Shown one piece after another: positions 18,361 to 28,049 of a stretch of DNA of 28,187 bases (positions are counted from its first letter, which is position 1; each line of letters opens with the position of its first letter). The translations under genes and the position numbers were made by a program. The notes under the pieces were generated by a model, which searched no databases, was not told the origin of the DNA, and saw nothing but the letters and a program-made list of their open reading frames with translations. The DNA lies in assembly GCA_031255055.1 (NCBI GenBank), contig JAIRTG010000125.1, positions 1 through 28,187 of the forward strand, written 5' to 3'. Source of the stretch: Prevotellaceae bacterium. GTDB taxonomy: Bacteria > Bacteroidota > Bacteroidia > Bacteroidales > Paludibacteraceae.

Positions 18361-18445
18361 GTGGGGGAAGTCTCCCCCTCGCTTCAGCCCGCCTGCGGCG
18401 GTCTTCCGCTACCCCCTCTGCGGGGCTCTGCCCCGCAACGCCCCG
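18361..18445 (+). repeat. REP-like GC-rich multi-hairpin element, copy A (GTGG head)
   Basis: GTGG-GGGAAGTCTCCCCCTCGCTTCAGCCCGCCTGCGGCGGTCTTCCGCTACCCCCTCTGCGGGGCTCTGCCCCGCAACGCCCCG; near-identical to three other copies in the window. Confidence 0.9.
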
Positions 18446-18533
18446 TCCCGGTACTCCATAGTCTCCCCTACCACTCTCCCCCCGATCAACAGCTACGCCT
18501 TGCACAGAGTGAGACAGAGTCGGCGGCAAGCGA

Positions 18534-18629
18534 GGATAAAAATCATCAAAACTTGGATAAAAATCATCCGAACTTGGGTAAAAATCATCCGAACTTGGAT
18601 AAAAATCATCAAAATTTGGGTAAAAATCA
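18534..18629. repeat. 21-bp tandem repeat, 4 units plus a partial unit (GG(A/G)TAAAAATCATC(A/C)(A/G)AA(C/T)TT)
   Basis: Units start at 18534, 18555, 18576, 18597, 18618. Confidence 0.92.
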
Positions 18630-18968
18630 GGGTAGGTACCCCAAAATTTAAGGGTAGGTACCCTAAAATTTAGGCTTGGTACCCCAAAATTTAAGGGTAT
18701 GTACCCTAAAAATCAGGCTTGGTACCCCAAAATTTAAGGGTAGGTACCCTAAAATTTAGGCTTGTTACCCCAAAATTTAAGGGTATGTACCCTAAAAATC
18801 AGGCTTGGTACCCCAAAATTTAAGGGTATGTACCCTAAAAATCAGGGTAGGTACCCCAAAATTTAAGGGTATGTACCCTTAAAAATCAAGGTATGTACCC
18901 TAAAAATCAGGCTTGGTACCCCAAATTTAAGGGTATGTACCCTAAAAATCAGGCTTGGTACCCCAAAA
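18630..18968. repeat. 16-unit 21/22-bp tandem array with a 43-bp higher-order period and a GTAC core
   Basis: Mostly alternating GGCTTGGTACCCCAAAATTTAA (22) and GGGTA(T/G)GTACCCTAAAA(ATC/TTT)A (21); GTAC at 18636, 18658, 18679, 18701, 18722 ... 18958 (one unit TTAC). Confidence 0.93.
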
Positions 18969-19052
18969 ACACGAATCATTAAACACAAATCATTGTTTAG
19001 AAAGCGATTTTAGCGCCATAAAAACAGCGAAGCCATCATCATTTTGCGAACC

Positions 19053-19084
19053 ATTGCAAAATAATAAAAATAAATGTACATTTG
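19053..19084 (+). promoter_or_regulatory. Bacteroidota promoter (-33 ATTG / -7 TACATTTG) for the T9SS cargo gene
   Basis: TACATTTG at 19077-19084, (A)TTG at 19053-19056, 20-nt spacer. Confidence 0.55.
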
Positions 19085-19467
19085 CAGAATCTCTACAAAA
19101 CGAAACAAACGTGAACCGATGACATACTATCATCAAAACAAAGATATAATTATTACGAAAAGCGCAACAGGCTATTTTGTCGTGTCAAATATCCTGTCAG
19201 ACACACAGATATACAGATACAAGTATACACTTGTCCTGCGTACGCACGCACGAAACACCCACACAGCGTCGTCCGCAGGCCATCTGCATAAAGACACACA
19301 CGCATTTGAGAACAAGACACCACTTTTAGCCCCCAAGCACATCAACAAAAAAAACGCGCTTCACCACACACTACAAGCGACTTCAAGTAACCCGACATAC
19401 ATCAAAACTTTCAACATAAATCATCAAAATAATTTGACAGATAACTAAAAACTAAATATATACGATT

Positions 19468-22400
19468 ATGAAAAGAATATTTTTATTATTAACAATCATC
19501 GTCTGCTTTTTTACGATCAACAAAGCAACGGCGCAACAACCGATAACGAGCGGTACAACCGGAGATTGTCAGTGGATGATCAACCTTCTTCCCACCGGTG
19601 ACTATCAGCTTGAAATCGTCTCCCTTTATGGGATCGAAGTCCTGATGGCGGATTACAATGATACCGACAACCTCGCCCCATGGTACACTTACAAGGGCTA
19701 CATTAAATCCCTGAAAATGTCCAACGTAATGAACATTGGAAATTTTGCTTTTGCCAATTGCACCGGCTTAACATCGGTCACCATCCCCCCTTCGGTGATA
19801 ACGATTGGAGAGCATGCTTTTGCCAATTGCACCGGCTTAGGAACGCTCACATTCGGAAATCTCGGCCGTTCGATAGCGATCATTGGAGACAAGGCTTTTT
19901 ACAGAACCGCCTTAACGTCGGTATCGATCGCAGATGAAACAACACTTGGAAACGCGGTTTTTGCCGATTGCCCCAACTTAACGAAAATTGAAGTTCTTTC
20001 TTCCAATCCCCAATACTCCGTTCAGGACGGCATACTGTTTAATAAACTAAAGGATACCCTGTTGCAATATCCCGCCGGTAAAACGACCACCGGTTATACC
20101 ATTCCCCTCAACGTGGCGACAATTGCAAACAGCGCTTTTGAAGGTAGCCGTCATTTAACATCGATCACGCTCGACGGAGTAATGACCATTGAAGAGGCGG
20201 CTTTTCGCAATTGCGACCACCTTACATCGCTCATCATCCCCGCTTTGGTAACGACGATTGGAGATCATGCTTTTGAAAATTGCTCCGACATAAAATCGAT
20301 AACCCTCAAGCCGACAATTCCTCCGGAGCTAGGTGTGGATGCTTTCAAGAATGTGTCTGCTGACGTGTTTGTTCACTGCAACACGGAATTCACCTATAAA
20401 GCAGCTCCGGGATGGAACAACCTCGGCGACAACCTCCCCTACATTGCGGATCCCTTCTATAAGATTACATTGAAAAGTTTCAACGACGACAATATGGAAT
20501 ATGGAAGAGTATTCGTGACATCAAGAGAGTACATCTGTTTGACCGCTCAGATCACCATTAAGGCAGAACCCAACGAGGGTTATGAATTTGCCGGGTGGAC
20601 AGACGACCTAACGGGGAGCGCGGAACGCACAGTGACGATCTCCGATAATGCGGTTTATCAGGCCATTTTTGTTAAGAAGAAGTATCTCGTAACGATAGCT
20701 TCAGCCAATACCGACATGGGACTCGTTGAAATTAAAGTCGGAGAAACCACATATCCTTCTTCCGGTAATGGTAGCGACTATGAGCAGGTATCTTTTGACA
20801 ATGGTACAGAAGTGACTGTCAGAGCAATAGCGAGATCGGGTTATAACTTTTTGTATTGGAACGACGGGAAAGACAAGCGCAACGATAAGGCAAATCCGCG
20901 CACCTTCACCATCACCAATGAGGATCTGAGTTTTATAGCCAACTTTGCGGATGGCGTTTATGTAATATCGGCATCTCAAGAGCTTTCGGGTCAGAACGAC
21001 TGGGGAACCGCTACCGTTGACGGAGTAGATGAAAAGAGTTATCGTTATGAGGAGAAAGCTACCCTTGAGGCGTTCCCCGCCTGGGACAAACTGTTTGTTG
21101 ATTGGGATGACGGCTCGCCGTATAATCCGCATGAAGTGACGGTCACAAGATCGCACCACTATACCGCCAATTTTGAACACCGCCGCTTTAAGATAAGGCT
21201 CAAGCTGAAAGAGGGTTGCGAGGGCATGGGAACGTTCTCCTCTTATAGTAATTCTTACGAGACAGACACAGACGGGGCGTATGTGTTTGTTTATTCGAGC
21301 GAAAGTTTTGGGTTTGAGGCGACAGCCACGGAAGGTAGTCGCTTTGTAAGATGGATAGAAATTGATGAGATACCTGCGCTGGCAGGACACGAATCATTCA
21401 AAGGCAAATCCGGGGATTCCGCATTAGAGAACATTCCTATGGATTCGATACTATTTGCGACATATCCGACGCTGACTTTTACGGCCGAGTTTCAGTCGGA
21501 TCACAATGTATACACCTACCAATTGAAAGGGCAAGAGGATCGGGGAGACGTTACGGTTATGAACAAAGAGACGGGAAAAGAACAAAATATCTTTGTACAC
21601 GGTGGGACGGCTCTAATTTTAGCGAAGCCCTCCGGCGGTTATAAGTTTATGCGATGGAATGACGGTAATCCGGGCGGCGTTCCTCCGCACGATCTGGGCA
21701 TTCAGCGCGATGTTATAGTCACGCGGGATACGTCTTTTCTTGCCCGCTTTGCGGCAGAGAACGCAGAACTCCATTGGCTGGAGTTCACGCCGAAGATTGT
21801 CGCTGGGGGAATCTATAGCACAGGTGGGGGAACCTTTAGAGGTGCAAATGGGGATATTACGGATCCGGAGGATATATATTGCGGTACGGGAATGTATGCG
21901 GAAGGGGAAGAGTTTTGGATTTTAGCAAACCCCGACCAAGGTAATAAATTTGTGCGATGGAACGAAGACGGCAATCTAGAAGAAGATCGTTATATTCGCG
22001 CGGGATACGATGACCAATGGAATAAGACGAGTAGTGCGTATTATACGGCCATATTTGTGGAGAACAATGTTAGTACCTGTATGATAAAGACCCCGACGAA
22101 GAAAATAGGGAACACGGATGAACTGGAATGGGGAACGATTACCGGCGGCGGACGGTATGCGGTGGGTGAGACAGTTAAGCTGGAGGCAAAGCCCGTCTAT
22201 GCTGGTGATATCTTTGTGGGATGGGACGACGACAACGACAACAAAATCAACAACACCGACAACCCGCGTACATTTGTGATTAGCGCTGACATGGGGGGAA
22301 AGGAAAAAACGTATACGGCCGTGTTTGCCAATCAGATTCGCGTAGCGCTCTATCCGGGGGATTTTGCTACCGGCAAATATTGTCACCAAGAGGATGAATA

Positions 22401-27306: not shown

Positions 27307-27335
27307 AGGTCTAACAGTGTTAATTGTTTTTCCTA

Positions 27336-27343
27336 CAAAAGTA
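27336..27343 (-). promoter_or_regulatory. Bacteroidota -7 box TACTTTTG for priA
   Basis: Plus-strand CAAAAGTA, ~30 nt upstream of GTG 27306; no clear -33 box. Confidence 0.55.
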
Positions 27344-27530
27344 CGAAAGATAATTTGAAGTACGTCATCGGCGGTTGATATCCGCTTGGTTTTTCGCACC
27401 GAAAGTCCCGCGGTCGAAGTCCGGCCGACGAGCGAGGTGTCGGTGATGAGCGGTTTGTGTTTAGTGATGAACGGTTCGTCTGCCGCGGTCTTCAGTGAAA
27501 GAATGAGAATGAGAATGAGAAAGAGAATAA

Positions 27531-27618
27531 GTAGGGGGGGGGAAGTCTCCCCCTCGCTTCAGCCCGCTGCGCGGTCTTCCGCTACCCCCTCTGCGGGGCG
27601 CTGCCCCGCAACGCCCCG
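27531..27618 (+). repeat. REP-like element, copy C (GTAG head)
   Basis: GTAG-G(n)AAGTCTCCCCCTCGCTTCAGCCCGCTGCGCGGTCTTCCGCTACCCCCTCTGCGGGGCGCTGCCCCGCAACGCCCCG. Confidence 0.9.
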
Positions 27619-27763
27619 TAAGACAGTGTTTATAGTGATTCGTGTTTAGTGATTAGTGGTTAAATGGTGATTAAATAGTGATGCGTGTTTAGTGATTCGT
27701 GATGAAATAGTGATTCGTGATTTGTGTTTAATGATTAGCAAGTTCGCCGTGTTTGACAATTCT

Positions 27764-27941
27764 TCACGAATCACGAATCGTTCGTCACGAATCGTTCGTC
27801 ACGAATCACTGTGTTTGACAATTTATCACGAATCACGAATCGTTCGTCACGAATCACGAATCGTTCGTCACGAATCACGAATCGTTCGTCACGAATCACG
27901 AATCGTTCGTCACGAATCACGAATCGTTCGTCACGAATCAC
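27764..27941. repeat. Heptamer-built 21-bp tandem repeat (TCACGAA TCACGAA TCGTTCG)
   Basis: Five perfect units at 27826-27930 plus a partial unit; one full, one 14-bp and one partial unit at 27764-27809. Confidence 0.95.
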
Positions 27942-27962
27942 TAACCACTCATCACTGTCTTT

Positions 27963-28049
27963 CGGGGCGTTGCGGGGCAGAGCCCCGCAGAGGGGGTAGC
28001 GGAAGACCGCGTAGCGGGCTGAAGCGAGGGGGAGACTTCCCCCCCCTAC
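27963..28049 (-). repeat. REP-like element, copy D (GTAG head), inverted partner of copy C
   Basis: Reverse complement reads GTAG-G(n)AAGTCTCCCCCTCGCTTCAGCCCGCTACGCGGTCTTCCGCTACCCCCTCTGCGGGGCTCTGCCCCGCAACGCCCCG. Confidence 0.9.

What the first reader, a model, noticed from the sequence alone, without database searches (positions are those of the whole stretch)
18361..28049. Dispersed ~85-90 bp four-hairpin REP-like element with GT(A/G)G heads and structure-preserving variation
Seen: four copies (A 18361-18445 +, B 24683-24772 -, C 27531-27618 +, D 27963-28049 -). Each starts with GTGG (A, B) or GTAG (C, D), then a variable G-run and hairpins GGGGGA-AGTC-TCCCCC, CCGC(C)-NNN-(G)GCGG, GCGG-TCTT-CCGC (an alternative pairing for the same GCGG) and GCGGGGC-NCT-GCCCCGC. 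Most differences fall in loops (TGC/GTT/TGC/TAC; TCT/GCT), and one C-G pair is lost from both arms together in C and D. Established: REPs associated with RAYT/TnpA(REP) HUH transposases carry a GT(A/G)G head 5' of a GC-rich palindrome but are usually only ~20-40 bp. Inference: an unusually long, structured REP class, probably mobilised in trans; no transposase is in the window.
Basis: partly seen in the sequence, partly recalled or inferred. Interest (0 to 1): 0.72.

Follow-up and report, generated by a model that had tools for sequence, protein, structure and literature searches.

The report
Hyper-expanded cross-phylum three-hairpin repeat
The four repeats are real copies of an ~85-base, three-hairpin DNA element that occurs more than 350 times in this small termite-gut bacterial genome. 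Nearly the same sequence occurs at low copy number in spirochaetes, Fibrobacter, sphingomonad plasmids and small single-stranded DNA phages, so it is a widespread mobile repeat of unknown mechanism, not a classical REP.

Summary
All four copies exist at the stated coordinates and cannot be chance. The window's genome is a 2.1-Mb, 82%-complete, probably Bacteroidota assembly from termite gut. It holds 312 full and about 70 partial copies, 1.4% of its DNA, and an element lies within 700 nt of 45% of contig ends.

The same core is about 94% identical in Treponema, other Spirochaetota, Fibrobacterota and alphaproteobacterial plasmids, at 1-19 copies per genome. Part of it also lies in rodent-gut microviruses. 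It was absent from 400 other genomes of the window's own phylum.

Three helices (P1, P2, P3) covary strongly. The GT(A/G)G head is not conserved: the consensus is TTAG+G-run here and AGGAGGGGG elsewhere. No Y1 HUH/RAYT gene was found in six element-bearing genomes, and no reverse transcriptase, TnpB or conserved neighbouring gene.

In a Treponema the element sits in frame inside folE2, as Rickettsia palindromic elements (RPEs) do in their hosts. In this genome it is strictly extragenic and built into mosaics: purine microsatellite, core, (NNNAGTG)n heptamers, centre motif, inverted core.

Verdict: a non-autonomous, folded-single-strand mobile repeat with an unknown mobilising activity, massively amplified in this genome. 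It is not a RAYT-REP. This scan had already noted the same family on other DNA (e1-5211819).

The parts
18361..18445 (+). Copy A of the core element (G-run, P1, linker J1/2, P2 = CCGCC-TGC-GGCGG, linker J2/3, P3, tail). It is followed by the minority tail flank GTCCCGGTACTCCAT... instead of heptamers.
18341..18360 (+). Purine-rich leader (AGAGAGAGAAAGATAATTA) in front of copy A. It is the local version of the (GAAAGA)n-AATTA leader found in front of most copies in the genome.
24683..24772 (-). Copy B (P2 = CCGCC-GTT-GGCGG, G-run of 10), with the same minority tail flank as A (GTCCGGCACACCATG...). It lies downstream of both the T9SS surface-protein gene and priA.
27531..27618 (+). Copy C. P1 pairs 27538-27543 with 27548-27553. 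P2 pairs 27561-27567 with 27571-27577 (C27563 and T27575 unpaired; loop TGC). P3 pairs 27593-27599 with 27603-27609. The tail is 27610-27618.
27480..27530 (+). Leader of copy C: a decayed P2-like hairpin plus TCTTC (CTGCCGCGGTCTTC), then a purine microsatellite (GAATGA/GAAAGA)n ending in AATAAGTA.
27619..27962 (.). Spacer of the tail-to-tail pair C/D. In order: TAAGACAGTG, a GTGATTN heptamer run, the centre motif GCAAGTTCGCCGTG (27738-27751), then reverse-complement heptamers organised as a 21-bp array (27826-27941).
27963..28049 (-). Copy D (P2 = CCGC-TAC-GCGG), the inverted partner of C.
28050..28187 (-). Leader of copy D on the minus strand (CCTTGAAGAAAGAGAAAAATAAGTA), followed by a 21-bp tandem array that runs to the window end.
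18534..18990 (.). Tandem arrays of 21-bp and 43-bp period on the tail side of copy A. They are part of the repeat-rich mosaic, not of the core.

Best explanation
The element is a non-autonomous, selfish DNA repeat whose functional form is a folded single strand, most likely DNA. The fold has three hairpins (P1, P2, P3) held between invariant unpaired linkers (CTCGCTWCAGCC, TCTTMCGCTACCCCCTC, AACGCCCC).

It belongs to a family that moves between phyla, probably on plasmids and perhaps on ssDNA phages. The family inserts after stop codons, into intergenic hairpin-prone DNA and, in frame, into genes. An ancestor of this termite-gut Bacteroidota genome acquired it, most plausibly from gut spirochaetes, and it then amplified to at least 350 copies.

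Here the copies sit in inverted, tail-to-tail pairs inside mosaics of purine microsatellite, heptamer arrays and a centre motif. Recombination or gene conversion keeps them homogeneous.

Shown: copy number, distribution, structure and covariation, insertion inside a conserved gene in a Treponema, and absence of HUH, RT and TnpB genes.
Inferred: mobility in this genome, the single-stranded DNA substrate, the direction of transfer, and a trans-acting enzyme that is still unidentified.
For: Abundance in the window's genome.
- 312 full and 70 partial copies, 30.4 kb or 1.43% of the assembly. 353 hits to the 23-mer.
- Summed contig depth is 5,500-6,500 at the elements against about 17 on flanking genes in the source sample.
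- 225 of 500 contig ends lie within 700 nt of a copy.

The family occurs elsewhere.
- Exact 23-mer in many Treponema, Spirochaetaceae, Fibrobacter, Chitinispirillaceae and Leptospira genomes, at 4-19 copies per genome.
- 7 of 151 sampled Spirochaetota carry it.
- 0 of 400 other genomes of the window's own phylum and 0 of 40 relatives carry it.
- Copies here are up to 94-95% identical to Treponema copies.
- It is on Sphingomonadaceae, Magnetospira and Treponema plasmids, and the head module is in six microviruses.

Structure (78 distinct sequences).
- 96% of cells are paired, against 81% in shuffles and 48-64% when partners are slid.
- 17 of 19 pairs show compensatory changes; 164 cells are double-changed against 39 in shuffles (0 of 500 shuffles reach this).

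DNA rather than RNA.
- G.U pairs (11) do not exceed A.C pairs (17).
- Copies lie in both orientations relative to genes.
- The element is translated through when it lies inside genes.

Mobility: an in-frame insertion of about 49 residues sits in Treponema FolE2, shown by a two-block alignment to PDB 2r5r. 21 of 78 foreign copies lie inside my ORF calls, and many others lie 0-30 nt from stop codons.

Non-autonomous: no recurrent neighbouring gene, and the spacers of inverted pairs are mostly ORF-free.

Homogenisation: about 75 of 88 columns are over 98% invariant, while the polymorphic sites are nearly unlinked.
Against: - No transposase or other mobilising gene was identified. Y1 HUH was absent in all six genomes, RT in four of five, and TnpB was not found in this genome. 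The Y2 search was uninformative because its control did not ring.
- No terminal inverted repeats beyond GGGG...CCCC, and no target-site duplication or fixed outer end could be defined.
- No empty-site or excision joints appeared in the source metagenome contigs, so recent movement in this lineage is not shown.
- Extreme conservation of unpaired segments across phyla would also fit a host-beneficial motif.
- Variable-length extensions of P2 and P3, up to about 100 nt, are typical of RNAs.
- The G.U against A.C test rests on few counts.
- The phylum assignment is indirect: RsmH look-alikes and a T9SS sorting domain.
Confidence: 0.6

Rival explanations
1. The core is a functional structured RNA, for example a cis-acting mRNA 3'-end, processing or stability module or a small RNA with C-rich seed regions. 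It is recognised by a conserved host factor and spreads because it is useful. The DNA copies are genes for that RNA.
For: Three covarying helices with invariant single-stranded linkers. P2 and P3 tolerate long structured extensions, as peripheral RNA stems do. In low-copy genomes many copies lie within 0-60 nt of stop codons, so they would be co-transcribed. Head-side genes here point towards the element somewhat more often than away (173 against 126). The forward strand allows a G.U extension of P1 in this genome's copies (read directly from the sequence).
Against: No Rfam 15 family matches, even at E<=1. Among stop-codon-proximal copies both orientations occur: 18 sense against 34 antisense to the adjacent gene. 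Copies here come as inverted pairs, so half are antisense to any given transcript. G.U pairs do not exceed A.C pairs. The element is read through as protein inside folE2 and other ORFs. There is no promoter or terminator signature of its own, and P3 has no U-tract.
Confidence: 0.15
2. In this genome the element has been domesticated as architectural DNA, like BIME/REP. The inverted pairs with heptamer palindromes and polypurine tracts would act as cruciform or non-B DNA sites for nucleoid proteins, gyrase or transcription insulation between gene blocks.
For: Regular mosaic organisation: leader, core, heptamers, centre, inverted core. 240 of 283 classifiable tails continue into the same G(T)AAGACAGTG plus heptamer module. 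256 of 281 heptamer arrays lie within 1.5 kb of an element. There are about 100 and 84 copies of the two centre motifs. All copies are extragenic. Very strong sequence homogeneity. Gene blocks are bounded by outward-facing tails (80 '-,+' intervals).
Against: The element is absent from every sampled relative and from 400 genomes of the phylum, so it is not an ancestral host system. The outer arms are ragged, with decayed head modules, as expected for junk accumulation. Copies are not excluded from promoter-side positions (42% face gene 5' ends). No binding protein is known.
Confidence: 0.15
3. One reading: a long member of the GTAG-tagged REP class, mobilised by a RAYT (TnpA-REP, Y1 HUH) transposase encoded elsewhere in the genome.
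For: GC-rich hairpins, frequent inverted pairs (REPIN-like), extragenic location and high copy number. The assembly is only 82% complete, so a RAYT gene could be missing.
Against: The GTAG/GTGG tag is not conserved (8 of 301 copies) and is absent in foreign copies. The architecture is three distinct hairpins over 85 nt, not one palindrome of 20-40 bp (PMC3733652). PF01797 was absent from six element-bearing genomes while it rang in 6 of 14 controls.
Confidence: 0.03

Closest known systems
Rickettsia palindromic elements (RPE; reviewed in PMC10969869)
   Same: Small (about 100-150 bp), hairpin-forming, non-autonomous repeats with no known transposase. They insert in frame into housekeeping genes and are translated as extra loops. 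Here this is seen in Treponema FolE2 and other ORFs.
   Different: No sequence relationship. RPEs are confined to Rickettsia, whereas this family spans at least four phyla, with part of the core in microviruses. In this genome all copies are extragenic. This element has three helices with invariant linkers rather than one long palindrome.
REP / BIME / REPIN elements and RAYT transposases (PMC3733652)
   Same: GC-rich extragenic hairpins at hundreds of copies, often as inverted pairs separated by other short motifs (a BIME-like mosaic).
   Different: No conserved GTAG or CGTC tag. The element is 85 nt with three different hairpins. No RAYT gene was found in any of six host genomes. Sequence identity of about 94% across phyla is not a property of REP families.
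Correia/NEMIS and ERIC elements (MITE-like repeats; PMC10969869)
   Same: About 100-150-bp non-coding repeats making up 1-2% of a small genome, with no cognate transposase known. For ERIC, the sequence is conserved across genera and copy number varies widely. These repeats are sometimes intragenic.
   Different: Those elements have long terminal inverted repeats, and Correia has TA duplications. Here the termini share only GGGG/CCCC and no duplication could be defined.
BrickBuilt MITE of Porphyromonas gingivalis (cited in PMC10969869)
   Same: A Bacteroidota repeat that combines element ends with an internal minisatellite of short tandem units.
   Different: Here the tandem units are 7 bp (or 21 bp) and lie between two inverted structured cores, with more than 350 copies. 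I did not compare the sequences.
Intergenic heptamer direct repeats (TAACTGA arrays of Beggiatoaceae, cyanobacteria and some Bacteroidetes; PMC4679880)
   Same: Abundant intergenic arrays of 7-nt units. Here (NNNAGTG)n arrays number 281.
   Different: In this genome the heptamer arrays are physically joined to the tail of the three-hairpin core and arranged as palindromes. The unit sequence also differs.
Integron attC sites and other folded single-strand recombination substrates
   Same: Conservation by structure, through compensatory changes in the stems, points to recognition of a folded single strand.
   Different: No R''/L''-L'/R' symmetry or GTTRRRY box (by inspection). The elements do not bound single-gene cassettes in one orientation. 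The linkers are sequence-invariant.

Membership tests
GTAG-tagged REP / RAYT system | Conserved unpaired GTAG (or CGTC) tetranucleotide at one end of the palindrome | tested here: not met
   8 of 301 genome copies read GTAG at the G-run, and the consensus is TTAG. Foreign copies start AGGAGGGGG.
GTAG-tagged REP / RAYT system | Single short (20-40 bp) palindrome | tested here: not met
   The core is about 85 nt with three different covarying helices and conserved linkers.
GTAG-tagged REP / RAYT system | RAYT (Y1_Tnp, PF01797) gene in the genome, typically flanked by the repeats | tested here: not met
   No PF01797 match in this genome (82% complete) or in five other element-bearing genomes. The control rang in 6 of 14 genomes. 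An unassembled gene in this draft cannot be excluded.
GTAG-tagged REP / RAYT system | Frequent inverted dimers (REPIN-like) | tested here: met
   22 adjacent tail-to-tail pairs on contigs (20 of them with spacers of 120-1431 nt), and 192 of 312 tails face a contig break.
MITE (miniature inverted-repeat transposable element) | Terminal inverted repeats matching those of an autonomous IS | tested here: not met
   The termini share only GGGG...CCCC. No related IS or transposase was found.
MITE (miniature inverted-repeat transposable element) | Target-site duplication | tested here: inconclusive
   No fixed outer boundary or direct repeat at 14 inverted pairs. No empty sites were available for comparison.
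IS200/IS605-derived palindrome-associated elements | Subterminal hairpins recognised by a Y1 TnpA, often with a TnpB gene or its guide RNA | tested here: not met
   PF01797 absent. The TnpB zinc-ribbon family PF07282 was not found in this genome.
Retroelement-derived repeat (retron, group II intron or DGR associated) | Reverse transcriptase in the host genome | tested here: not met
   PF00078 was found in only 1 of 5 element-bearing genomes, and not in this one.
Rickettsia palindromic elements | In-frame insertion into protein-coding genes, with read-through | tested here: met
   Treponema FolE2 carries an insertion of about 49 residues containing the element. Other ORFs carry the GEVSPSLQP... 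peptide. This is not seen in the window's own genome. It is a resemblance in behaviour only; there is no sequence homology.
Any Rfam 15 RNA family | Covariance-model match | tested here: not met
   No hit at gathering threshold in the window. No relevant hit at E<=1 in five element-bearing loci.

The most novel reading that the evidence does not exclude
The three-hairpin core may be the substrate of a still unknown mobilisation machinery that is neither HUH, reverse transcriptase nor TnpB and that recognises a folded single strand. Alternatively it may be a motif bound by a universally conserved host factor. Either would explain how it keeps about 94% identity and invariant unpaired linkers across Bacteroidota, Spirochaetota, Fibrobacterota and Alphaproteobacteria (with part of the core also in ssDNA phages), and how it can colonise 1.4% of a genome. 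That would make it a new class of promiscuous bacterial element, not a variant of REP or MITE.
Probability: 0.25. Interest if true: 0.85.

Novelty: new variant of a known kind. Interest (0 to 1): 0.62.

Why it matters
Small structured repeats such as REP, ERIC, Correia and RPE are usually confined to one genus or family, and for several of them the way they move is still unknown.

This family keeps a nearly invariant core across at least four bacterial phyla, and part of the core occurs in ssDNA phages. It inserts in frame into essential enzymes in some hosts. In one termite-gut bacterium it has exploded to more than 350 copies, and these fragment the assembly.

Several uses follow:
- The high-copy genome gives a natural mutational scan of the element: which positions may vary and which may not.
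- It flags a cause of poor assembly of genomes from gut metagenomes.
- It offers cultured hosts (Treponema bryantii, Treponema sp. JC4, sphingomonads) in which the unknown mobilising activity could be sought.
- It provides a marker of horizontal exchange among gut bacteria of different phyla.

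Tried and rejected
- Rfam at gathering threshold and at E<=1: nothing relevant.
- Literature search by sequence strings and by keywords: no description of this element found.
- RNA evidence: no RNA holder was listed for the window, so expression could not be examined.
- Read laying on the three termite-gut runs: contigs only, with no convincing joints that skip an element. 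The single-contig joints listed have short sides and were not used.
- Search for an autonomous copy. Neighbour ORFs at 45 foreign loci share no family except an artefact cluster caused by translating the element itself. Genes flanked by two elements are ordinary: a GH39 glycosidase, an aminotransferase and an indolepyruvate oxidoreductase. ORFs inside inverted pairs have no Pfam family. The only multi-copy gene near contig ends gives a sub-threshold PD-(D/E)XK hit, which I did not count.
- Y2_Tnp (PF04986): the search is uninformative because nothing rang in the control genomes.
- The MAFFT alignment with RNAalifold (A2) was not structure-coherent for P2 and P3, so I replaced it with a covariance-model alignment (A4). 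That alignment leans towards the model; the slid-partner control still separates clearly.
- Sub-family structure and concordance of paired copies: rejected. Sites are nearly unlinked, and partners in a pair share variants no more often than chance.
- The idea that copies A and B form a cargo-carrying cassette around the T9SS gene: only 2 of 22 tail-to-tail neighbours enclose genes, so I treat it as coincidental.
- attC-like boxes and dif-like sites: not seen by inspection.

Full report
**Observation.** The four copies are at the stated coordinates and are about 95% identical over about 88 nt. The most conserved 23-mer, GAAGTCTCCCCCTCGCTWCAGCC, matches exactly these four places, with none expected in 100 shuffles. 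Two details of the description do not hold.
- The 'GT(A/G)G head' is an accident of these four copies. In the genome the G-run is preceded by TTAG in 168 of 301 copies and by GTAG in 8. Copy A's GTGG is a G>T change inside the G-run.
- The proposed alternative hairpin GCGG-TCTT-CCGC shows no covariation (63% paired, the same as in shuffles).

The paired loss of a C and a G from the second hairpin is real. It is one instance of three stem types (CCGCC, CCGC, CGCC) combined with several loops (TAC, TGC, GTT, GTA, TTC, TTAC), almost all forming perfect hairpins.

**Scale in the window's genome.** The assembly has 2.12 Mb in 250 contigs, is 45% GC and 82% complete, and comes from a termite-gut metagenome.
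- It holds 312 full-length and 70 partial copies by nhmmer, and 353 hits to the 23-mer. This is 30.4 kb, or 1.43% of the DNA.
- In the source sample, summed contig depth at the elements is 5,500-6,500 against about 17 over neighbouring genes, which fits 300-370 copies.
- 225 of 500 contig ends lie within 700 nt of a copy, and 192 of 312 copies have their tail facing a contig break. The repeat and what follows it are therefore what fragments this assembly.
- About 75 of 88 columns are over 98% invariant. Variation is confined to P2, two loops and two linker sites.
- The variable sites are almost unlinked (Cramer's V below 0.1 for P2 stem type against sites 64, 72 and 74). The two partners of a pair share variants no more often than chance. 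This argues for recombination or gene conversion among copies, or for recurrent hairpin-templated mutation, not for clean sub-families.

**Larger anatomy here.** The core is one module of a mosaic.
- Upstream lie a purine microsatellite, (GAAAGA)n-AATTA, and often one to three tandem or decayed 'head modules' (G-run, P1, linker, P2, TCTTCC) spaced about 75 nt apart.
- Downstream, 240 of 283 classifiable tails continue as G(T)AAGACAGTG followed by (NNNAGTG)n heptamers.
- 156 of 281 heptamer arrays start within 60 nt of a tail, and 256 lie within 1.5 kb of one.
- The arrays run into one of two centre motifs (about 100 and 84 copies), then reverse-complement heptamers and an inverted core. The C/D pair in the window is a complete example.
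- Neighbouring copies on contigs are arranged (-,+) 80 times with genes between them, and (+,-) 22 times. Twenty of those 22 have spacers of 120-1431 nt, mostly ORF-free, and the other two enclose genes.
- The outer arms have no fixed end and no visible target duplication, so the mosaic looks like an accreting repeat nest, not one discrete transposon.
- No copy lies deep inside a long ORF in this genome.
- The window's genes are ordinary: the dcw cluster, a T9SS-sorted LRR surface protein and priA.

**The family elsewhere.** This is not a lineage-specific REP.
- These copies share the same architecture: P1 GGGGGAAGTCTCCCCC; linker CTCGCTWCAGCC; a P2 of variable sequence and length; linker TCTTMCGCTACCCCCTC; P3 as GCGGGG/CCCCGC, ACGGGG/CCCCGT, TAGGGG/CCCCTA or CCGGGG/CCCCGG; tail AACGCCCC or AAACCCC.
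- Five such genomes hold 4-19 copies each.
- 7 of 151 sampled Spirochaetota carry it, at 1-7 copies.
- No other of 400 genomes from the window's own phylum carries it, nor do 40 closer relatives. The phylum is Bacteroidota, judged from RsmH look-alikes and the T9SS sorting domain.
- Copies in the window are up to 94-95% identical to Treponema copies.
- BLAST also finds the whole element on plasmids of Sphingobium, Sphingomonas, Tardibacter (next to a Tn3-family transposase gene), Magnetospira and Treponema saccharophilum. The head module occurs in six rodent-gut microviruses.
- Other termite-gut samples that lack this organism still cover the element.

**Structure.** A covariance model built from 15 sequences found 85 copies in the foreign loci. 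On that alignment:
- 96% of cells are paired, against 81% in shuffles and 48-64% when partners are slid.
- 17 of 19 pairs show compensatory changes.
- 164 cells are double-changed against 39 in shuffles, and 0 of 500 shuffles reach this.

The alignment is fitted to the model, but compensatory changes are also plain in the raw sequences. Examples are CAGCC...GTCTT changing to CAACC...GTTTT, and GGGGGA/TCCCCC changing to GGGGAA/TTCCCC.

G.U pairs (11) do not outnumber A.C pairs (17), so there is no sign that one RNA strand is the selected form. The tail echoes the 3' arm of P3 and changes with it, which I cannot explain.

**Mobility and how it might work.**
- In a Treponema assembly, FolE2 aligns to PDB 2r5r in two blocks separated by an extra segment of about 49 residues. 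That segment is the element plus short flanks, read in frame.
- An ABC-transporter ORF, an hsdS ORF and an unassigned ORF carry the same GEVSPSLQP... peptide.
- Of 78 distinct foreign copies, 21 lie inside my ORF calls. Most of the rest lie 0-60 nt from a stop codon, in either orientation.
- All three forward reading frames of the core are open (by inspection).
- No candidate enzyme co-occurs with the element. PF01797 is absent from six genomes, RVT_1 is present in one of five, TnpB was not found in this genome, and the Y2_Tnp search was uninformative.
- No neighbouring gene recurs.

I therefore read the element as a non-autonomous repeat whose folded single strand is recognised by an unidentified trans-acting activity. 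It was acquired horizontally, plausibly from co-resident spirochaetes, and amplified here. That the substrate is single-stranded DNA, and the direction of transfer, are inferences.

**Comparison with known systems.** It behaves like Rickettsia palindromic elements in its in-frame insertions, and like REP/BIME, Correia and ERIC in abundance, inverted pairing and mosaic structure (PMC10969869, PMC3733652). It fails the defining tests for GTAG-REP/RAYT, for MITEs (no terminal inverted repeats; target duplication undetermined), for IS200/IS605 derivatives and for any Rfam family. The heptamer arrays recall the intergenic heptamer repeats of Beggiatoaceae and cyanobacteria (PMC4679880). I found no paper describing this element.

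**Earlier notes of this scan.** Other AI notes independently describe the same family: e1-5211819 (in-frame copies in a Treponema ABC transporter; also Fibrobacter and Alphaproteobacteria) and e1-4509626. Related heptamer-armed repeats in Fibrobacter are described in e1-4171035. I reached the cross-phylum and in-frame results before reading those notes, and they agree with mine.

**Verdict.** The REP/RAYT reading is not supported. What is new in this window is the extreme amplification and mosaic organisation of a promiscuous three-hairpin element in a Bacteroidota genome.

Noticed in passing
window 27619-27962; genome-wide: (NNNAGTG)n heptamer arrays (281 in the genome) are almost always attached to the tail of the element. 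They are arranged as palindromes around one of two recurrent centre motifs, CATGGCGAACTTGC (about 100 copies) and ATAGCGAATCCGCAC (about 84 copies). The window has the first motif at 27738-27751 on the minus strand.
   Followed up: partly
G000 contigs C195:5997-6224, C132:34-273, C114:13584-13814: Tandem runs of two to four 'head modules' (G-run, P1, linker, P2, TCTTCC, about 75-nt period) precede a single full element. The element is therefore modular and its 5' half can duplicate on its own.
   Followed up: partly
window 18446-18480 and 24640-24682: Copies A and B share a minority tail flank, GTCC(C)GG(T/C)AC.CCAT..., followed by C-rich runs instead of heptamers. About 25 of 283 genome copies have this flank.
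   Followed up: no
all copies, 5' end: The G-run in front of P1 varies from 5 to 13 G, with modes at 8, 5 and 9. This may be slipped-strand variation or homopolymer sequencing error, and it was not resolved.
   Followed up: no
L095:2778-2832 (Bajarodmic virus 799) and five related microviruses: The head module of the element (P1, linker, P2, CCGCTACCCCCTCTG) lies at the 3' end of a hypothetical gene of ssDNA microviruses from rodent faeces, on the antisense strand. These phages are a possible vehicle for transfer between phyla.
   Followed up: partly
L094:3001-3086 (Tardibacter plasmid pHSL1): A complete copy lies between a DUF6771 gene and a Tn3-family transposase gene on a mobilisable sphingomonad plasmid, which has three places matching the element.
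   Followed up: no
L042, L046, L051, L023 (Treponema loci): In Treponema a single element often sits at the apex of an inverted pair of heptamer arrays, (TAGGTNN)n on the left and (NNACCTA)n on the right. This is the opposite topology to this genome, where two elements sit at the base of the heptamer palindrome.
   Followed up: partly
G000 contig C66:485-8339: Four tandem paralogues of a roughly 580-aa PKD-domain protein with a T9SS sorting tail, plus two more on other contigs. This is the largest multi-copy protein family in the assembly.
   Followed up: no
window 18621-18969: A 43-bp (21+22) higher-order tandem array rich in GGTACC lies between mraZ and the surface-protein operon. It is unrelated in sequence to the heptamers but has the same ~21-bp period as the arrays at 27826-27941 and 28069-28187.
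   Followed up: no
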